IMG/VR virus record: IMGVR_UViG_3300031417_000358
DNA: 64,000 bases
Origin: a virus
Reading direction: 5' to 3' (one strand)
This document shows positions 16,110 to 26,883 of the stretch, piece after piece. The position numbers were made by a program, and so were the translations under genes. Numbering within the stretch: the first letter of the stretch is position 1; each line of letters begins with the position of its first letter. The notes below the pieces were generated by a model, which had not been told where the DNA came from, did no database searches, and was given only the letters and a program-made list of their open reading frames with translations.

Positions 16110-17183
16110 TCACGCCCGGCGCCGCTCGCCGGTCTCCATCCTGTCGACGTACCGGGCCATCAACGGCAGGAATTCATAATTCCCGCTGGGCATGATGTCC
16201 TCGGTTTCGCGCGTAGCACGGTACCGGATACCGGGGATGAGTTTGCGTTCGTCCATCCAGACGAGTTGGACGCCATAGCGCGGTTCGGCGCCGAAGGCTG
16301 CGAGCCCCTGGAACAGGCGGGACTGCCAGTCGCCTATCAGGCGCCACTGTACACGTTGCTCCAACCAGATGTCGCGCACCACCGGGCCGCTGCCAGCGGC
16401 CCACTGCTGTAGCTCCTCCAGGGAGAACCAGCCGGTATTGAACAGCTTCGGCTGGTTCGTGTCCAGGTAGAAAATCACCTCGTCCTTGGCGTCGTCGAAC
16501 CAGGCTGGCGTGAGCGTGCGGTAGGTGCAGCCGGCGGCCTCAAGCTGCCCAATGAGGCCTGTCGCATCTACCGCGCGCGCCAGTTCGCGCGTGGTCAAGT
16601 CCCGCTCCACCAGATGCGCGTGGTCTTCAGGCGTCAACCGGCTCATGCGCAGCAGCTTCATGGGCCCTGGGCTGCCGGTCAACCTTGGCGGCTCCAACAC
16701 GGCTACATCGCGGGCCAGCAGCGCGTCCTGAAGTTGCTGCAGCAAAGCGAGGTTCGCCTGTCCGCGAGCGTGCACGGCGAAACCGCTGGCCCCCCAAGCG
16801 GCCACCACGTCGTGTTCGGGCAAACTCAGCCGATGCGTAGGGTCATGGAAGAACTCAACGTCGAAGCGCCGCGCCAGCTCGAGCTCGGGCTCCCCGGGCG
16901 CAACAGACGGTTCGGTCAGCAGCAGCAGGGCAGCCGGGTAGGAGCGCCGATTGCTCAGCCTCGGCCGGGACACATACGGCAAGTACCGCAGGCCCGGAAG
17001 GGCAGGGTTGACCTGTCGGTCGACCAGGCCAATCGGATACTCCGGGAGCTCGACGCCCAGCAAGCCAAGGAGCGGCGAGATGCCCTGGACGTGCTCGGCG
17101 CGCCGGTCGAACCCGAGCGACAGCCCGACCATCACGCCGTTGGTGTCGAACAGCCAGCCGACGTCCTGATAGGACCGTTTCAT
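16110..17183 (-). CDS. Hypothetical protein (357 aa)
   Basis: Long ORF with protein-like composition; no recognised motif. Confidence 0.75.
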   Translation of the reverse strand: MKRSYQDVGWLFDTNGVMVGLSLGFDRRAEHVQGISPLLGLLGVELPEYPIGLVDRQVNPALPGLRYLPYVSRPRLSNRRSYPAALLLLTEPSVAPGEPELELARRFDVEFFHDPTHRLSLPEHDVVAAWGASGFAVHARGQANLALLQQLQDALLARDVAVLEPPRLTGSPGPMKLLRMSRLTPEDHAHLVERDLTTRELARAVDATGLIGQLEAAGCTYRTLTPAWFDDAKDEVIFYLDTNQPKLFNTGWFSLEELQQWAAGSGPVVRDIWLEQRVQWRLIGDWQSRLFQGLAAFGAEPRYGVQLVWMDERKLIPGIRYRATRETEDIMPSGNYEFLPLMARYVDRMETGERRRA

Positions 17184-20371: not shown

Positions 20372-21016
20372 TCAGTGTAATGCGTCTTCAAAATAGGGGC
20401 GCGGCGCCTGCAGTGCGATGAAGCACGTCTGGTCGTCCAGGTCGCCCACCTGTTCCTTCTTTGCGGTATTTACGTACTGCACCATGCCAAAGCCGCGAGC
20501 CACAAGGATGTCCCGGTACGCACGAGCGATGTCGGCCTGCAGGGCGCGATGTTCTCGCAGGTCCGTGTACCCGGCCATTTCCCATGCGCCGCTCTTGCGG
20601 ATGTGCTCGAGGAGCGATGGCCCATCCGGGTAGCCAAACACCGGCGCCAGGCGCGCGACCAGGTCGGGGCGTTCGGGGAATACCACCTTGCCGATGTCGT
20701 GCGCGATGGCGTGGTAGTCCACCGCGAATAGCCCAAGCCAGTAGCCCTTTTCAGGGTGCATGAGCCGGCTGTATGCGCCGGGGAAGTCCGAATACTGCTG
20801 GTTCACCTTGTAGATGGCGCCGGTCAGGCGCACCGGCATGATGCGTCCGCCGTACCGCTTGCCATGTCCTTTGCGTCCGGGGTTCCTGAGCGCGAAGCGG
20901 TTGGCCAGGGCGGGTGTCTTCGAGAAGTGCGGACCGACCATGCGGTCGACCGACTCTTCTCCGGTGATGAAATTGTCGATGTCGACTTTGGTGCCGTGAT
21001 AGCCGATGATGTGCAT
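20372..21016 (-). CDS. ADP-ribosyltransferase-like protein (ART-PolyVal-like)
   Basis: YHGT, GPHFS..P..A..FA, GRIMPVRL, GFGMVQY.N. Confidence 0.55.
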   Translation of the reverse strand: MHIIGYHGTKVDIDNFITGEESVDRMVGPHFSKTPALANRFALRNPGRKGHGKRYGGRIMPVRLTGAIYKVNQQYSDFPGAYSRLMHPEKGYWLGLFAVDYHAIAHDIGKVVFPERPDLVARLAPVFGYPDGPSLLEHIRKSGAWEMAGYTDLREHRALQADIARAYRDILVARGFGMVQYVNTAKKEQVGDLDDQTCFIALQAPRPYFEDALH

Positions 21017-21083: not shown

Positions 21084-21110
21084 AAAACCGCGACCAGAGA
21101 CTGGCCGCGG
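21084..21110 (-). terminator. Terminator, duplicated at 22679-22705
   Basis: AAAACCGCGACCAGAGA(C/A)TGGCCGCGG, 26 of 27 bases identical. Confidence 0.75.
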
Positions 21111-21122
21111 CGGGGTTGAGGT

Positions 21123-22211
21123 TTAGATTGTCCGTACGTTCACGCAGGCGATGGCGGTCTTGAGCTTGCTGGTGGCCAGCTCGCGGTAGTCCTCCTTGTT
21201 CGACCTCACGTACACGTTGGCGCCGGTGGCCATCACGAAGTCACGCAGCACGTCCAGCGCCAGCTGATAGTGCGGCATGTCCAGGTAGGTCAGCACGTCG
21301 GTGATGCCCAGCCACGATTGCGGCGTGACGTCATCGAAGGCCAGGGCCAGGTAGACGCAGAACGCCAGACCATACTGCTCTCCGGTGCCCAGCGCATACC
21401 AGGACATCGGAGACCGCTCGCCGCAGCGCTCGACGATGACGTCCGCAGCACCAGGCCCCAGTTCGAAGTCGGTACCCATGACGCGCCGCACGAGCACATT
21501 TGCCAACGCGGTGAGCCGGCGGCTGCGCGGATGCTGGTTCAGCTTGTCGAGCCAGCAGCGCGGGTCGCGAACATACGCAAATGGGTGCGTGACCGTCGCG
21601 GCGAAGTCGCGCATCGGGGCATGGCCCTGGAGCGGATTCTCGCGCTGCACGTCAAACGCCGGCAGGCGGAAGCCCTTGTGAGTCTTCCCGAACGGGTTGG
21701 CCAGCAGGCCAGCCAGCTCACGCCCGCGGCAGACGACCTTGCGCACGCCACGCACATCCTGTTCGAGCAACCGCGCGAGGTCCCGGTTTTCCGGTTTCTC
21801 GAGCCAGTTGTCCATGTCGACGATGTACAGGTAGGCGTGCGGTCCGACCAGGCTGCTGCACGCGTCCTGGTACATCGCGACCTTCAGGCTGAAAAGGTCC
21901 GTTGCCGCGACCATGCGGCCAGCGAGCGCGCGCGCCAGGCGCTTCTCGTGGAAGTCGTCGGTGGCGAACAATTCGTCAGCCGACACCAGTGCAACCAGGG
22001 AGGCCGGCGATGGCGAGCTCGGGGTGAGCAGCACCAGGCCGTCCTGTTCGACGCACGACAGCTGCAGCATGTCCAGCAGCGCCGTCAGGCGTGCCGGTCC
22101 GGTTTCGTCCGGCGCCGTCAGGCCGTAGGTTTCGCGCCGTTCGCGGATTGTTTCCCAGTCCGTGCAGGCCGATGCTTCGAAGTCTTCTTCTTTCAACAGG
22201 GGTAATGCCAT
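21123..22211 (-). CDS. Degenerate ABC/SMC-type ATPase-like protein, paralog 1
   Basis: LGTGEQ signature-like, WLGITDVLTYLD Walker B/D-loop-like, no GK in the P-loop position. Confidence 0.6.
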   Translation of the reverse strand: MALPLLKEEDFEASACTDWETIRERRETYGLTAPDETGPARLTALLDMLQLSCVEQDGLVLLTPSSPSPASLVALVSADELFATDDFHEKRLARALAGRMVAATDLFSLKVAMYQDACSSLVGPHAYLYIVDMDNWLEKPENRDLARLLEQDVRGVRKVVCRGRELAGLLANPFGKTHKGFRLPAFDVQRENPLQGHAPMRDFAATVTHPFAYVRDPRCWLDKLNQHPRSRRLTALANVLVRRVMGTDFELGPGAADVIVERCGERSPMSWYALGTGEQYGLAFCVYLALAFDDVTPQSWLGITDVLTYLDMPHYQLALDVLRDFVMATGANVYVRSNKEDYRELATSKLKTAIACVNVRTI

Positions 22212-22231
22212 GATAAGTCCTCCAGTGAGAT

Positions 22232-22249
22232 TGTCCTAAAGCGGTATAG
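22232..22249 (-). promoter_or_regulatory. CTATAC-N6-AGGACA motif
   Basis: Exact motif. Confidence 0.65.
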
Positions 22250-22385
22250 GCTCAAGGAGGCTGGTAGCCGTGCGGGTTGTCGCTTGCTCGGCGTGCGCCG
22301 GTAGGTAAATTGGAGCTGCAACCCGGCTCCGTCGAAAAACAAAACCTCCCAAGTGGGAGGTTTCATAGAGTGGGCGGTGGTCGAG

Positions 22386-22568
22386 TCAGGCTTGCTTCTG
22401 GTAGAGCCAGAGATTTAACAGCAGGTATAACGCGTTGGTACCGAGGGTGAATGTCCGACCAAAGCGAACGAAGTCACTTGGGGCGTTGACCTGAAAGAGG
22501 TACAGGCCCATGCCGAGCAGTACCAGGTTCAGCCCCATCAGCAGTTTGAGGATGTTTTTTGCCGACAT
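22386..22568 (-). CDS. Small two-TM membrane protein (60 aa)
   Basis: AAAGGA RBS before MSAKNIL; CTATAC at 22604-22609. Confidence 0.6.
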   Translation of the reverse strand: MSAKNILKLLMGLNLVLLGMGLYLFQVNAPSDFVRFGRTFTLGTNALYLLLNLWLYQKQA

Positions 22569-22678
22569 AATATTTCCTTTGGATAGTAAGTTTCCACGTT
22601 GCAGTATAGCCATCGCCGGCCAGCGTCTTGTCATGCCTCGAGGAACTGGTGCCAACATGCGCGCCGGCGCCGCAAGAT

Positions 22679-22705
22679 AAAACCGCGACCAGAGAATGGC
22701 CGCGG
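22679..22705 (-). terminator. Terminator, duplicate of 21084-21110
   Basis: Near-identical hairpin after paralog 2. Confidence 0.75.
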
Positions 22706-22715
22706 TGGATGAGAC

Positions 22716-23807
22716 TTAGGTTGCCAACGCTTTGAGGTGCTTGCCGGCGGCCTCGAGCTTGGCGCTGGTCAGCTCCCGGTAATCGCTCTTGTTGGTCCTG
22801 AAGTAGACGTTCGCACCGGTGGCCACGACGAAATCGCGCAGCGCATCCATCGCAAGCAGATACTTCGTCAGGTCCAGATAATTCAGGACTTCCGAGATGC
22901 CGAGCCAGGTGTCCGGGGATGCCTCCTCGAACGCCAGGGTCAGGTATGCACAGAATGCCAGGCCATACTGCTCGCCGTTACCCAGGCAATGCCAAGGCAC
23001 CGACGAGCATTTGCCCCAGCGCTCCAGCAGCACGTCATCACTGTCGAGCTGCAACCGGTAGTCCACGCCTACGACACGGCGCGCGAGGGCGTTGGCCCGG
23101 GTGAGCAGTCGTGCCGCATCCGGATGGTGCTGCAGCGTCTCCATCCAGGTGAAGGAGTCGGGCACGCGCGCAAACGGATGGGTGACGGTCGCGGTGAAAT
23201 CACGCACGGGGGGCTCAAACGGCAGCTGGTCCCTGCGGTGCACCTCGAACTCCGGCCGGTGGGTCCCCGTGTAGGCGTCCCCGAACGGATTGGCCAGCAG
23301 CTGGGCCAGGTCACCGGGGCGGCAGATGAACTTGCGCACGACGCGGTCGTCCTGCTCGGTCATCAGCGCGATAGCCTGGTTGGTCGAGTCGGCCAGCCAG
23401 TTGTCCAGGTCGACCACGTACAGGTACGCGTGCAATCCGGACAGCGAGCGGAAGCTGCTCTGCCACAGCGCGGCCTTTTTGCTGAACAGGTCGCCGGTGC
23501 CAGGTACACGGGAAGTGCGCCGCTGCGCCAGGCGCTCGTCCTGCGCGGCATCCCAGGCGAACAGTTCGCTCGCCGAGACTAGGGCGATGGTGGAATGGGA
23601 CGGGCGGTCTGGGGTCAGCACCACCAGTCCTTTCACCTCGCAGTGGGGCAGACCCAGTTCCGACAGCAGCGCCATGATGCGCGCCGGGCCGGTTTCATCC
23701 GGCGCCGACACGCGGTAGTCCTCGCGCTGTTCACGAATGGCGGCCCAGTCGGTGGGGCCTTCGCCGGCGTAGGGCAGGCGAGCGGTAGTGGAATTTGCGG
23801 TAGTCAT
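22716..23807 (-). CDS. Degenerate ABC/SMC-type ATPase-like protein, paralog 2
   Basis: LGNGEQYGLAF, WLGISEVLNYLD; aligns end to end with 21123-22211. Confidence 0.6.
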   Translation of the reverse strand: MTTANSTTARLPYAGEGPTDWAAIREQREDYRVSAPDETGPARIMALLSELGLPHCEVKGLVVLTPDRPSHSTIALVSASELFAWDAAQDERLAQRRTSRVPGTGDLFSKKAALWQSSFRSLSGLHAYLYVVDLDNWLADSTNQAIALMTEQDDRVVRKFICRPGDLAQLLANPFGDAYTGTHRPEFEVHRRDQLPFEPPVRDFTATVTHPFARVPDSFTWMETLQHHPDAARLLTRANALARRVVGVDYRLQLDSDDVLLERWGKCSSVPWHCLGNGEQYGLAFCAYLTLAFEEASPDTWLGISEVLNYLDLTKYLLAMDALRDFVVATGANVYFRTNKSDYRELTSAKLEAAGKHLKALAT

Positions 23808-23830
23808 GATGTTGTCCTCCAGTGGTTGAT

Positions 23831-23884
23831 TGTCCTGAAGAGGTATAGGCCGCCGCGCGCGGCGCTATACGGCAGGGTAGGACC
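23831..23884. promoter_or_regulatory. Back-to-back divergent CTATAC motifs
   Basis: Minus: CTATAC-N6-AGGACA at 23831-23848; plus: CTATAC-N8-AGGACC at 23865-23884. Confidence 0.65.
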
Positions 23885-23947: not shown

Positions 23948-24520
23948 ATGCAACTGAACCTAGCACAATTTCTGCTCGCGCTGACCGCTAACTTCACCCA
24001 GGGTCTGACGGCAGAAAAGGGCATCGTCACGCTCGAAAGTGGCGACACGTTCGACGTCAAGGCGAACGCGAAGGCCCTGCAGACGCTCCTGATGTCGGCA
24101 TCGCTCGACCTGAAGGACGCGCACGAGCAAATGGTGCAGTTCGTCTCGAACCAGCCGGAAGACACGCCGTACTACCACGAGACGCGTGAGCAGCTCGTGG
24201 CCTACCGCCGCGGCCTCGAAGTCCTCGGTCTTGGTCTCGACGTCGCGCCGGTCGCCCTCGCAGCCGGTGACCCGGCCATGCAGGTGAGCACGGATGGCGG
24301 GATGACCTACCAGCCGGCGCTCAACGGCGTGCGCATCATCTACAGCAAGGTGGCCATTCCGGGCGAAGATTCGCCAGGCGAGCTGCACGTCAACGCCTCG
24401 TCCGAGGGCATCATCCTCGATGCGTGGACCACGCGTGATGAGCCGCTCGACCACAACATTGGCACTTCGTCGGAATCGACCGGCGACATCCTCGAACGCC
24501 TCGTGAAGGACAACGAGTAA
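23948..24520 (+). CDS. Hypothetical protein sharing its N-terminal ~37 aa with 24661-25269
   Basis: MQLNLAQFL..G.VT.E.GDTFDV. Confidence 0.75.
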   Translation: MQLNLAQFLLALTANFTQGLTAEKGIVTLESGDTFDVKANAKALQTLLMSASLDLKDAHEQMVQFVSNQPEDTPYYHETREQLVAYRRGLEVLGLGLDVAPVALAAGDPAMQVSTDGGMTYQPALNGVRIIYSKVAIPGEDSPGELHVNASSEGIILDAWTTRDEPLDHNIGTSSESTGDILERLVKDNE

Positions 24521-24660: not shown

Positions 24661-25269
24661 ATGAAACTCAATCACGCACAATTTCTGGCCGCGCTGCAGC
24701 AGGCCAACGGTTCGGTGTCGGTCGCCGCTGGCCTCGTGACGTTCGAAAACGGCGACACGTTCGATGTCGCCGAGCACTCGCCGAGCGACACCGAGCAAGG
24801 CACCCCGTTGGAGGCGGCCCGCGCGCTGGCGGCAATCCACAAGAACGAGCCCGCCATCGTCGACGCGTTCCGCGGCATCAGCCAGCGCGAGCGCAACCAC
24901 CTGGCGGCCGCGCTGTCGGCGTTCTACCCGGTGCTGGTCATGGAGAACAAGTACCAGCCTGTGCTGCTGGATGAGCCCATCAAAATCCCGGTGACCACGT
25001 ACGAGGAGGGCCTGGCCGTCCAGCGCGCACTGTTCGCCCTGGGCTGTGGCTTCCACCATGGCAGCTACCCTCTGGCGAAGGACATCTCGGACGAGTGTAC
25101 GCTCAGCGGCATTTTCGTGAGCCGCAAGGGCGTCATGACTGTCATGCCGTTCGCGGAGAAGGGCAGCGTCGACTACGTGGCAAACCACAAGGACCGTGCG
25201 GTGTCGCCCGCTACCGTGCTGGAGGCGACGACCCTGGCCGAGTTGCTGGGCTGTGACGCATCACGGTAA
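24661..25269 (+). CDS. Hypothetical protein sharing its N-terminus with 23948-24520
   Basis: MKLNHAQFL..GLVTFENGDTFDV; AAGGGAAG RBS. Confidence 0.75.
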   Translation: MKLNHAQFLAALQQANGSVSVAAGLVTFENGDTFDVAEHSPSDTEQGTPLEAARALAAIHKNEPAIVDAFRGISQRERNHLAAALSAFYPVLVMENKYQPVLLDEPIKIPVTTYEEGLAVQRALFALGCGFHHGSYPLAKDISDECTLSGIFVSRKGVMTVMPFAEKGSVDYVANHKDRAVSPATVLEATTLAELLGCDASR

Positions 25270-25784: not shown

Positions 25785-26219
25785 TTACTGGATGCTCAGC
25801 TTGTCCGGCATGAGACCAATGGCCATGTCGATGCGGCCGTCGGGCTCCTGCAGATAGATGATGTCGTAGCCCTGGATGATGAGCTCGGTCCGGTACGCGG
25901 TGTAAATGCGTCGCTCGGTCGCCGCAACTTCATCATCGTCGGCCAGCTCCCGGGTGAGGCGGCCCACCTCGTTGTTCAGGCGGCTCAGCTCCTGCAGCTG
26001 CATCACGTAGGGCTTCTCGACGCGCACGTCCACGTCCAGGCAGGTCTTGCCGAATCGCTCGGCAAGCTCACGCCCAACGGCCAGCCACACGCCCAGGTGC
26101 CCGTTGCCCGACATGCCCGGGCGCGCAGCGAAGTCCAGGCTGAAGCGCTCGAACCGCTGTTGCGCGCCGTGGTACATGCGAACCGTGCCGGCCATAGCCA
26201 GCGGCGTGGTGTGATTCAT
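25785..26219 (-). CDS. ADP-ribosyltransferase-like protein (ART-PolyVal-like)
   Basis: MYHG....FERF, GNGHLGVWL...A..FG, V.VEKPY, QGYDII. Confidence 0.55.
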   Translation of the reverse strand: MNHTTPLAMAGTVRMYHGAQQRFERFSLDFAARPGMSGNGHLGVWLAVGRELAERFGKTCLDVDVRVEKPYVMQLQELSRLNNEVGRLTRELADDDEVAATERRIYTAYRTELIIQGYDIIYLQEPDGRIDMAIGLMPDKLSIQ

Positions 26220-26236
26220 AAGGGTCTCCATGTCAA

Positions 26237-26254
26237 TGTCCTTGTCCGGTATAG
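26237..26254 (-). promoter_or_regulatory. CTATAC-N6-AGGACA motif
   Basis: Exact motif. Confidence 0.65.
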
Positions 26255-26289
26255 CGGCAAGGCCCGGCGCCGTGCTCGGCGCGGCAACG

Positions 26290-26307
26290 CTATACCTCTG
26301 CATGACA
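26290..26307 (+). promoter_or_regulatory. CTATAC-N6-ATGACA variant overlapping a start codon
   Basis: ATG 26302 occupies the AGG position of the motif; no SD visible. Confidence 0.55.
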
Positions 26308-26883
26308 AAAACCTCCCTCGGCCTCCTGGCCCTCAGTCTGTGCACGACCGCGGTCGCCGCGCCGGCGCGCCAACCCTCGCTGGTCGGCGACGTCGCGCTC
26401 TCCGCCACCCCGGACGACGCATCGCTCAAGCCGCAATGGCGGGTCGACTTCGTGCCCCAGCGCGGCAACCAGCGGCCGCCGTTCTCGGGCCGGCTGCTCG
26501 TGTATCGCGCCGGCGAGCAGAAGCCGGCTGACGTCATCGGCGTCACCGCCCACGTGGCGCTGGAGGAGCTGCAGCTGTCCATGCCCGACGTCGACGGCGA
26601 CGGCCATCCCGACCTGGTGTTCGCCGGGGTGCGCGACCACGTCTACAAGCGCCAGGCTGACGCCGTCTACCTCTGGTCGGCGCCGCGCGGCCGGTTTGTT
26701 CTCGAGCCGGGCCTGTCGCGCCTGGGCACGGCCTACCCGTCAAACTCGACGCCAGGCTGCGTCACGGTGGAAACCTGGTGCGGCGACACGAGCATCGACA
26801 CCGTGGAGCTGTGCCGCAGGCCGAGTACCGGCCGCTGGGTGCAAACGCCCAACCCCAATCCCGTCTGCGAGGACCGCGATTAG
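26302..26883 (+). CDS. Secreted protein with a DxDGDGxxD (FG-GAP-like) motif
   Basis: Sec signal; DVDGDGHPDL; Cys residues near the C-terminus. Confidence 0.7.
   Translation: MTKTSLGLLALSLCTTAVAAPARQPSLVGDVALSATPDDASLKPQWRVDFVPQRGNQRPPFSGRLLVYRAGEQKPADVIGVTAHVALEELQLSMPDVDGDGHPDLVFAGVRDHVYKRQADAVYLWSAPRGRFVLEPGLSRLGTAYPSNSTPGCVTVETWCGDTSIDTVELCRRPSTGRWVQTPNPNPVCEDRD

What the first reader, a model, noticed from the sequence alone, without database searches (positions are those of the whole stretch)
21084..23848. Duplicated pseudo-ABC ATPases with every catalytic motif eroded
Seen: two ~362-aa paralogs, each with its own motif promoter and near-identical terminator. They keep ABC/SMC motif order but lose key residues: P-loop position GLV(L/V)LT-P..PS..S without GK; signature LG(T/N)GEQ; Walker B WLGI(TD/SE); D-loop YLD; H-loop replaced by RSN/RTN. 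Established: ABC-type ATPases (AAA_15/AAA_21, OLD, Rad50-like) are the sensors of PARIS, Gabija and Septu. Inference: catalytically dead mimics retained and duplicated as dominant-negative decoys, or nucleotide-independent scaffolds.
Basis: partly seen in the sequence, partly recalled or inferred. Interest (0 to 1): 0.65.

Follow-up and report, generated by a model that had tools for sequence, protein, structure and literature searches.

The report
Rad50-like pseudo-ATPase gene pair
Two diverged copies of an unnamed gene encode proteins whose second half is a Rad50/SMC-type ATPase head that keeps the motifs touching a partner's ATP but has lost every motif needed to bind or split ATP itself; what they do is unknown.

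Summary
Genes A (21123-22211, minus strand) and B (22716-23807, minus strand) are 53% identical. Each has a CTATAC-N6-AGGACA promoter-like motif and a near-identical terminator.

They belong to a small unnamed family: about 59 clusters, all 320-365 aa, with no Pfam, NCBIfam, PHROG or PADLOC match. I found it only on very large plasmid-like replicons of Burkholderiales.

A confident AlphaFold model (pLDDT 86) and a profile-profile match show that residues ~181-355 are a compact Rad50/SMC-type ABC head without a coiled coil. Across the family:
- the signature motif (S-x-G-E-Q/R/K) and the D-loop (L-D) are conserved;
- Walker A is absent in all 51 representatives;
- the Walker B Asp/Glu and the H-loop His positions are not conserved.

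That stretch lies in a separate N-terminal alpha/beta domain that gave no ABC match.

The genes are under moderate purifying selection (dN/dS 0.36-0.53), so they are not decaying. The pseudo-ATPase status is well supported. The decoy or scaffold function is untested.

My best guess is that the protein docks in trans onto an ATP-loaded Rad50/SMC-like head. No partner gene lies nearby.

The parts
23831..23848 (-). Promoter-like motif CTATAC-N6-AGGACA upstream of gene B
   Evidence: Exact match. The window has 9 sites against 0.74 expected. It is followed by a GGAGG ribosome-binding site and the ATG at 23807.
22716..23807 (-). Gene B, 363 aa (P0018), Rad50/SMC-like pseudo-ATPase
   Evidence: ORF. 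53% identical to A. Scores 354 bits against the family profile.
22968..22982 (-). B signature motif G-N-G-E-Q (family consensus S-x-G-E-Q/R/K)
   Evidence: Read from the sequence. Column counts over 51 representatives: S 41, G 41, E 49. Aligned to the Rad50 SGGER motif.
22872..22907 (-). B Walker-B-position strand and D-loop (WLGISEVLNYLD)
   Evidence: Aligned to Rad50 LLILDEPTPYLD. Here the Walker B Asp is replaced by Ser and the Glu is retained. Neither position is conserved across the family, whereas the D-loop Asp is present in 45 of 51.
22679..22705 (-). Intrinsic terminator of B
   Evidence: The stem CCGCGGCC..GGTCGCGGTTT is identical to that of A and of the relative in L001.
22386..22568 (-). 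Intervening small gene (about 60 aa from the ATG at 22568, hydrophobic) with its own CTATAC-like site and terminator. It lies between the two copies and is not shown to belong with them.
   Evidence: ORF listing and sequence. The locus L001 has one family gene.
22232..22249 (-). Promoter-like motif CTATAC-N6-AGGACA upstream of gene A
   Evidence: Exact match. The 5' leader AATC..CACTGGAGGA is conserved with B and L001.
21123..22211 (-). Gene A, 362 aa (P0001), Rad50/SMC-like pseudo-ATPase
   Evidence: ORF. AlphaFold model pLDDT 86.3, pTM 0.85.
21681..22121 (-). A N-terminal alpha/beta domain (residues ~31-177), fold unassigned
   Evidence: Folded alone: pLDDT 84.7. Best structural Z is 6.4, to nuclease domains of Cdn1 and Can2, Mus81-Eme1, FokI and Vsr, and also to CheY-like receivers. 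Foldseek found nothing below E 0.038. Family-wide conserved residues: E150, D152, K158 (50 of 51), P173, F174.
21147..21671 (-). A ABC-head core (residues ~181-355) without coiled coil
   Evidence: VIA Z 10.6-10.8 to Rad50. Residues 226-355 match the Rad50 and SMC C-halves; residues 181-225 match part of the N-half. hhalign probability 93.8% to a canonical ABC ATPase.
21375..21389 (-). A signature motif G-T-G-E-Q
   Evidence: Sequence, column counts, Rad50 alignment.
21279..21314 (-). A Walker-B-position strand and D-loop (WLGITDVLTYLD)
   Evidence: Walker B Asp replaced by Thr and catalytic Glu by Asp. D-loop LD retained.
21084..21110 (-). Intrinsic terminator of A

Best explanation
SHOWN. 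A and B are two old, diverged members of an unnamed protein family carried as stand-alone, individually promoted and terminated genes by very large plasmid-like replicons of Burkholderiales. Each protein has two parts. The first is an N-terminal alpha/beta domain of unassigned fold. The second is a compact Rad50/SMC-type ABC head that lacks the coiled coil. The head keeps the signature motif S-x-G-E-(Q/R/K) and the D-loop L-D. It has no Walker A, no conserved Walker B Asp/Glu and no H-loop His.

INFERRED. In canonical ABC dimers the lost motifs bind and hydrolyse the nucleotide within one subunit. The two retained motifs reach across the interface to the ATP held by the opposite subunit. The protein therefore most likely cannot load ATP itself. 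I propose it works by docking head-to-tail onto an ATP-loaded canonical Rad50/SMC-like head, either of the host or encoded elsewhere on the element. That would form an asymmetric one-site dimer that holds, blocks or regulates the machine. Candidate partners are SbcC/Rad50, RecN, SMC/MukB-like proteins, Lamassu LmuB and Wadjet JetC. The N-terminal domain would supply specificity or a second contact. The partner is unidentified.
For: Fold: Foldseek top hits are all Rad50, SbcC, SMC or PtuA heads (probability 0.97-1.0, best E 1.5e-3). VIA gives Z 10.8, rmsd 2.7 A over 119 residues to the Pyrococcus Rad50 C-half, and Z 10.6-10.7 over 156-158 residues to whole Rad50 heads.

Sequence: the family profile matches the Rad50 C-half at E 0.0017 among PDB sequences, with the motifs aligned. 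hhalign gives probability 93.8%, E 1.7e-7 to a 1033-aa AAA_23/SMC_N/AAA_13 protein.

Motif pattern over 51 representatives:
- GxxxxGK[ST] is absent in all.
- Signature S 41, G 41, E 49; D-loop D 45.
- The Walker B positions have no majority residue, and there is no His at the H-loop position.

Selection: dN/dS is 0.36-0.53, with uniform length in about 59 clusters.

Two diverged copies share a contig in four cases.

The gene sits in a block syntenic from ruvB to the ribonucleotide reductase gene in two related metagenome contigs.
Against: No partner has been identified. RuvB carries the only genuine Walker A in the 64-kb window. In the Variovorax plasmid the AAA_23-like genes lie far from the family member.

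No multimer prediction, binding data or coordinates were available, so the trans-docking geometry is inferred from motif conservation alone.

The conserved signature could instead bind a phosphate of DNA or of another ligand.

Conserved N-domain residues (E150, D152, K158) hint at an activity of its own that this model does not explain.
Confidence: 0.35

Rival explanations
1. Nucleotide-independent DNA-maintenance protein of the element itself. A and B form homo- or heterodimers through the ABC-like face. Together with the nuclease-fold-like N-terminal domain they bind DNA or branched DNA as a structural or recombination accessory factor, with no canonical ABC partner.
For: The gene lies in a conserved syntenic block between ruvB and ribonucleotide reductase, not in a variable island. 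The N-domain's best, though weak, structural matches are nuclease domains such as Mus81-Eme1, Hef, FokI, Vsr, Can2 and Cdn1. Two copies per element on four contigs fits a heterodimer. No partner ABC gene lies nearby.
Against: N-domain Z scores (6.4 or less) are within the tool's stated noise range, and CheY-like folds score similarly. I saw no conserved pair of acidic residues and Lys on neighbouring strands of the kind I expect from PD-(D/E)xK nucleases (own knowledge); the conserved E150, D152 and K158 lie at a helix end and the next strand. This reading does not explain why the signature and D-loop stay conserved while the other ABC motifs do not.
Confidence: 0.3
2. One reading: dominant-negative decoys of host OLD/AAA_15/AAA_21-type defence sensors (PARIS AriA, Gabija GajA, Septu PtuA).
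For: Retron/Septu PtuA chains appear among the Foldseek matches (probability 0.97-0.99). Protein-language-model neighbours include AAA_15 and AAA_21 clusters (scores 0.86-0.89, leads only). Neighbouring genes include ART-PolyVal-like proteins, which from my own knowledge are typical of conflict loci of mobile elements.
Against: Rad50/SMC-type heads score best by structure and are the only ones detected by sequence profile. There is no PADLOC, Pfam AAA_15 or AAA_21 hit at E up to 1. The host is a giant plasmid-like replicon, not a demonstrated phage. No relative was found in the phage collections searched.
Confidence: 0.1
3. Split ABC ATPase: a separate gene elsewhere supplies the Walker A half, and the two reconstitute an active enzyme.
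For: The best-matching solved chains are the isolated C-halves of Rad50 and SMC.
Against: The Walker B Asp/Glu and the H-loop His, which lie in the C-half, are also lost. RuvB carries the only genuine Walker A in the window. The model already contains a vestigial N-half segment at residues 181-225.
Confidence: 0.04
4. Decaying relics of a once-active ATPase, with no function.
For: All hydrolytic motifs are lost. dN/dS is fairly high (0.53 between A and B).
Against: Intact ORFs of uniform length occur in about 59 clusters. Near-invariant family positions include K158, F174, E278, T329 and G330. dN/dS is below 1 in all three comparisons. Promoter, ribosome-binding site and terminator are conserved. 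The fold prediction is confident.
Confidence: 0.02

Closest known systems
Rad50/SbcC ABC-ATPase head (for example Pyrococcus furiosus Rad50, PDB 1f2u and 9a9j; Thermotoga Rad50, 3qf7)
   Same: Same fold for residues ~181-355 (Z 10.6-10.8). The signature motif, the helix after it, the Walker-B strand, the D-loop and the last core strand follow in the same order and are alignable by sequence profile.
   Different: No Walker A, no Walker B Asp/Glu, no H-loop His, no coiled coil or zinc hook, and no adjacent Mre11-type nuclease gene seen among the neighbours scanned. An unrelated ~150-residue N-terminal domain is added.
SMC-family heads and the AAA_13 / AAA_23 clade of SMC-like ATPases (including Lamassu LmuB, PDB 9uxl)
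   Same: Structural Z 8-10. The only longer protein found by profile search is a 1033-aa AAA_23/SMC_N/AAA_13 ATPase, aligned over 115 columns at hhalign probability 93.8%.
   Different: That relative carries the AAA_23 and SMC_N domains that hold Walker A in canonical members. The family here is one third of its length and has lost the cis-acting motifs.
Degenerate nucleotide-binding sites of heterodimeric ABC proteins (own knowledge: CFTR NBD1, TM287/288, and the asymmetric Smc1/Smc3 sites)
   Same: One face of the dimer keeps contact motifs while catalytic residues are lost, giving an asymmetric dimer with a single competent site.
   Different: Those proteins still bind ATP through their own Walker A. 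Here the whole cis half of the site is missing, and the partner is unknown.
OLD/AAA_15/AAA_21 defence ATPases (PARIS AriA, Gabija GajA, Septu/retron PtuA)
   Same: Same ABC superfamily. PtuA chains appear among the Foldseek matches.
   Different: No profile match. There is no TOPRIM or HNH partner gene, and the family is closer to Rad50/SMC by every test run.

Membership tests
ABC ATPase superfamily, Rad50/SMC-type head | ABC head fold (C-half: beta-hairpin, signature helix, Walker-B strand, D-loop helix, H-loop strand) | tested here: met
   Z 10.8, rmsd 2.7 A over 119 residues to the Pyrococcus Rad50 C-half. Z 10.6-10.7 over 156-158 residues to whole Rad50 heads. Foldseek probability 1.0.
ABC ATPase superfamily, Rad50/SMC-type head | Signature (C-loop) motif LSGG(Q/E) | tested here: met
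   S-x-G-E-(Q/R/K): S 41, G 41, E 49 of 51. Aligned to the Rad50 SGGER motif.
ABC ATPase superfamily, Rad50/SMC-type head | Walker A GxxxxGK(S/T) | tested here: not met
   No match in any of 51 family representatives.
ABC ATPase superfamily, Rad50/SMC-type head | Walker B hhhhD followed by the catalytic Glu | tested here: not met
   The positions aligned to the Rad50 D-E pair are T-D in A and S-E in B. Across the family they have no majority residue.
ABC ATPase superfamily, Rad50/SMC-type head | D-loop (L-D after Walker B) | tested here: met
   L 39 of 51 and D 45 of 51.
ABC ATPase superfamily, Rad50/SMC-type head | H-loop histidine after the last core strand | tested here: not met
   Positions 337-338 are S/T and D/A/N, with no His.
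ABC ATPase superfamily, Rad50/SMC-type head | Long coiled coil inserted between the N- and C-halves | tested here: not met
   The proteins are 320-365 aa. The model has no long helical arm.
OLD / AAA_15 / AAA_21 defence ATPases (PARIS, Gabija, Septu) | Match to the family profiles (Pfam AAA_15 or AAA_21; PADLOC models) | tested here: not met
   No hit for A or B at E up to 1 in Pfam or 0.1 in PADLOC. AAA_15 and AAA_21 are absent from the weak hits of all 51 members.
OLD / AAA_15 / AAA_21 defence ATPases (PARIS, Gabija, Septu) | Adjacent nuclease effector (TOPRIM or HNH) | tested here: not met
   The neighbours scanned are orphan proteins, ART-PolyVal-like genes and an RCC1 protein. None matched a nuclease family.
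PD-(D/E)xK restriction-endonuclease-like fold (N-terminal domain) | Fold match and catalytic D...(D/E)xK residues on the core strands | tested here: inconclusive
   Best Z is 6.4, to the Cdn1 and Can2 nuclease domains, Mus81-Eme1, FokI and Vsr. This is within the tool's stated noise range, and CheY-like folds score similarly. Conserved E150, D152 and K158 do not sit in the canonical arrangement.
Lamassu / ABC-3C middle component (Pfam MComp1, PF20289) | Profile match above the gathering score | tested here: inconclusive
   5 of 51 members hit, with best E 0.0026 and 18 bits against a cut-off of 27.3, on the N-domain. There is no hit in the Variovorax plasmid.

The most novel reading that the evidence does not exclude
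This would be a previously unrecognised class of 'half-site' ABC head mimics. Giant plasmid-like replicons would encode proteins that present only the trans-acting face of a Rad50/SMC head (signature plus D-loop). These would clamp onto the ATP-loaded heads of host SMC-like surveillance or repair machines (Lamassu, Wadjet, SbcCD, RecN), trap them in a non-productive asymmetric dimer, and so protect the element.
Probability: 0.15. Interest if true: 0.8.

Novelty: new variant of a known kind. Interest (0 to 1): 0.5.

Why it matters
ABC heads of the Rad50/SMC type drive DNA repair, chromosome folding and several anti-plasmid and anti-phage systems. This is a naturally selected protein that keeps only the motifs reaching across the dimer interface and discards the whole nucleotide-binding half. 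I found no family model or paper for it in the libraries I searched.

If it docks on a canonical head, it would be a natural tool for freezing such machines in a one-site state. It would also be a new way for large mobile replicons to tune or evade them. If it acts alone, it shows that the ABC head scaffold can be reused without nucleotide.

Either way, the family (about 59 clusters, all annotated as hypothetical where a name is given) now has a fold assignment and a testable motif map.

Tried and rejected
Family libraries. Pfam, PHROGs, PADLOC and NCBIfam scans of A, B and eight neighbours gave nothing for A or B.

Third paralog. I tested ORF 16110-17183 (357 aa) as a possible third copy. hhalign probability was 0.2%, so I rejected it. 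A family HMM search of all ORFs in the window found only A and B.

Other collections.
- Relatives in IMG/VR viral contigs and in GTDB species genomes: none by pattern scan.
- INPHARED phages by tblastn: none.
- Plasmids by megablast: none.
- Plasmids by tblastn: four ~800-kb Variovorax plasmids with one distant copy each.

I therefore could not examine gene neighbourhoods for most homologues, and the copy number in the full 508-kb contig is unknown.

Partner search. RuvB carries the only genuine Walker A in the window. The AAA_23 and SMC_N hits on the Variovorax plasmid are not linked to the family gene.

Lamassu lead. The weak MComp1 (Lamassu middle component) hits stayed below the cut-off, and the Variovorax record gave no hit.

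Literature. Three searches for Walker-A-less ABC decoys or pseudo-ATPases, or for the host element type, found no precedent. The Krishnan et al. 2020 ABC classification paper is not held.

Element identity. I could not settle whether the element is a plasmid or a phage. I saw no phage hallmark gene and no IMG/VR relative.
Full report
**What is there**

The minus strand carries two intact genes. A is at 21123-22211 (362 aa) and B at 22716-23807 (363 aa). They are 53% identical over 343 residues (E 1e-128).

Each gene is preceded by an exact CTATAC-N6-AGGACA motif, at 22232-22249 for A and 23831-23848 for B. The motif occurs 9 times in the window against 0.74 expected by chance. A GGAGG ribosome-binding site follows about 7 nt before each ATG.

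Each gene is followed by a G+C-rich hairpin with a T tract, at 21084-21110 and 22679-22705. The two hairpins differ at a single loop base.

**Family**

Neither protein matches Pfam, PHROGs, PADLOC or NCBIfam.
- A word-indexed search found 26 close relatives of 343-374 aa (one is a 207-aa fragment). Where a source gives a name, it is 'hypothetical protein'.
- An exhaustive phmmer search of 1.84 billion cluster representatives found 59 hits, none longer than 365 aa.
- Named sources are two Paraburkholderia assemblies and four ~800-kb Variovorax plasmids.
- Several members lie on contigs of 450-610 kb, and the window's own contig is 508 kb.

The relatives L001 and L002 (metagenome contigs) are syntenic with the window from ruvB to the ribonucleotide reductase gene and carry the same CTATAC motif. 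The gene therefore belongs to a conserved block of a family of very large plasmid-like replicons of Burkholderiales.

Relatives of the window's RuvB co-occur on the same contigs as family members. I found no relatives in IMG/VR or INPHARED and could not decide between plasmid and phage.

**Fold**

With a 24-sequence alignment, AlphaFold2 gives a confident model: pLDDT 86.3, pTM 0.85.
- Foldseek against the PDB returns only Rad50, SbcC, SMC, cohesin, Smc5/6 and retron PtuA heads (probability 0.97-1.0, best E 1.5e-3, about 120-140 columns).
- VIA-align gives Z 10.8 (rmsd 2.7 A, 119 residues) to the isolated C-half of Pyrococcus Rad50, covering model residues 226-355.
- It gives Z 10.6-10.7 (156-158 residues) to whole Rad50 heads, covering model residues 181-352.

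BFVD gives the same picture with viral Rad50/SMC-like proteins.

**Sequence-level homology**

A profile of 51 family representatives hits the Pyrococcus Rad50 C-half at E 0.0017 among PDB sequences. The motifs are aligned: PLxxLSxGEq against PLTFLSGGER, and clgIxxxLxxLD against LLILDEPTPYLD.

A profile search restricted to longer proteins found one protein. It is a 1033-aa protein with AAA_23, SMC_N, AAA_13, AAA_15 and AAA_21 domains (E 6.9e-6 against 5.8 billion sequences). hhalign aligns 115 columns of its C-terminal end with probability 93.8%.

The C-terminal half is therefore a true, if distant, homologue of Rad50/SMC-type ABC heads.

**Motif audit (51 representatives)**

| Motif | State in the family |
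|---|---|
| Walker A GxxxxGK[ST] | absent in all 51 |
| Signature | S 41, G 41, E 49, Q/R/K 45 |
| Walker B Asp and catalytic Glu positions | T-D in A, S-E in B; no majority residue across the family |
| D-loop | L 39, D 45 |
| H-loop position | S/T then D/A/N, never His |

Further near-invariant positions are a family-specific A-T-G turn before the last core strand (46, 49 and 50 of 51), R243 and G246. In the N-terminal domain they are E150, D152, K158 (50 of 51), P173, F174 (50 of 51) and P184.

'Every catalytic motif eroded' needs qualifying, because the two motifs that act across the dimer interface are among the best conserved positions of the family.

**The supposed P-loop**

In the model this is a beta-hairpin of a separate domain.

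I folded residues 1-184 alone with a 60-row alignment (pLDDT 84.7) and searched with that model.
- Foldseek finds nothing below E 0.038.
- VIA's best Z is 6.4. Its top matches are nuclease domains (Cdn1, Can2, Mus81-Eme1, AF1548, FokI, Vsr, Hef) mixed with CheY-like receivers. These values are inside the tool's stated noise range.
- No ABC N-lobe appears among the matches.

Whole-head alignments instead put model residues 181-225 opposite the stretch of Rad50/SMC N-halves that begins at about residue 20. From my own knowledge the P-loop strand and its helix lie there. The family has a variable, often gapped loop at that place.

This last mapping rests on alignment ranges, not on residue-level superposition. 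I had no access to coordinates.

**Selection and history**

Nei-Gojobori estimates:

| Pair | dN/dS | dS |
|---|---|---|
| A and B | 0.53 | 0.73 |
| A and L001 | 0.36 | 1.23 |
| B and L001 | 0.39 | 1.21 |

For A against B and A against L001 the C-terminal half is more constrained than the N-terminal half. dS is near saturation, and at 62% G+C it is probably depressed by codon bias. The ratios are therefore rough, but all are below 1.

Combined with uniform length and near-invariant residues, neutral decay is excluded.

A maximum-likelihood tree (quick search, SH-aLRT support) gives three groupings.
- A falls in a clade with P0006, P0007 and P0009.
- B falls with P0016 and P0017.
- The second copies of three other contigs (P0021, P0022, P0024) form a third clade.

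Elements therefore repeatedly carry two members from different old sublineages (four contigs). This is not a recent tandem duplication.

The leader and terminator sequences are conserved between A, B and L001. The terminator stem is invariant, although synonymous sites are near saturation.

**Context**

Genes near A and B are mostly orphans.
- An ART-PolyVal-like gene follows A (20372-21016, E 0.0088). Its relative (61% identical) lies about 580 bp downstream of the L001 gene.
- A second, unrelated ART-like gene is at 25785-26582.
- RuvB carries the only genuine Walker A in the 64-kb window.
- In the Variovorax plasmid the single copy stands alone near a type I-E CRISPR-Cas locus and a DpdB gene. 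AAA_23-like ABC genes exist on that plasmid but lie far away.

**Mechanism**

Shown: this is a Rad50/SMC-derived head that lacks all cis-acting nucleotide motifs and conserves the trans-acting ones.

Inferred, from established knowledge of ABC dimers: the signature Ser/Gly and the D-loop contact the ATP and active site of the opposite subunit. On that basis the protein most plausibly docks on an ATP-loaded canonical head and forms an asymmetric one-site dimer, acting as a regulator or inhibitor. I give this about 0.35.

The main rival, at about 0.3, is a nucleotide-independent DNA-maintenance or scaffold protein of the element itself, using the N-terminal domain.

It is less likely (about 0.1), because every test points to Rad50/SMC rather than OLD-type relatives.

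A split enzyme (0.04) and decay (0.02) are unlikely.

**Verdict**

The pseudo-ATPase reading is supported. The function remains untested.

This is an undescribed, narrowly distributed variant of the ABC ATPase head with an unusual and informative pattern of motif retention. Interest is moderate (0.5).

Noticed in passing
window 21084-21110 and 22679-22705; L001 11108-11128: The terminator stem CCGCGGCC...GGTCGCGGTTT is sequence-invariant, with no compensatory changes, in A, B and the 49%-identical relative on another element. Synonymous sites are near saturation, so the hairpin sequence itself seems constrained. It may be more than a terminator.
   Followed up: partly
window 22386-22568 (minus strand): A small gene between the two copies, about 60 aa from the ATG at 22568 and hydrophobic. 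It has its own CTATAC-like site and a separate terminator (CCTCCCACTTGGGAGG plus a T run). The locus L001 has only one family gene.
   Followed up: no
window 23948-24520 and 24661-25269 (plus strand): Two adjacent orphan genes share a 38-residue N-terminal module (M.LN.AQFL.AL...G.VT.E.GDTFDV, 58% identity) but then diverge completely.
   Followed up: partly
window 14407-37315; L001 1-21068; L002 1-10279: The metagenome contigs are syntenic with the window from ruvB through the pseudo-ATPase and the ART-like gene to the NMNAT-like gene, the MazG and seryl-synthetase-core pair and the ribonucleotide reductase gene. L001 shares the CTATAC motif. This defines a conserved backbone of a family of 100-700-kb replicons whose nature, plasmid or phage, I could not settle.
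   Followed up: partly
one search hit list (RuvB relatives): Divergent RuvB copies, 65-87% identical to the window's, occur as singleton clusters on contigs of 330-700 kb. Two of these assemblies are labelled Burkholderia ubonensis and Paraburkholderia aspalathi. This suggests that such elements hide in isolate assemblies.
   Followed up: no
L003 (Variovorax sp. SRS16 plasmid 2, NZ_LR594667.1, 420615-444956): The distant family member sits about 4 kb from a type I-E CRISPR-Cas gene set (casA to cas6e, cas1, cas2e) in which no cas3 is annotated within the stretch shown. A lone DpdB (DGQHR) gene with a DUF6884 gene lies next to it.
   Followed up: no
P0034 residues 105-149 (N-terminal domain of a family member): Five of 51 family members give sub-threshold hits to Pfam MComp1, the Lamassu/ABC-3C middle component (best E 0.0026). 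If real, the family would combine LmuC-like and LmuB-like parts. A follow-up search on the Variovorax plasmid gave no hit.
   Followed up: partly
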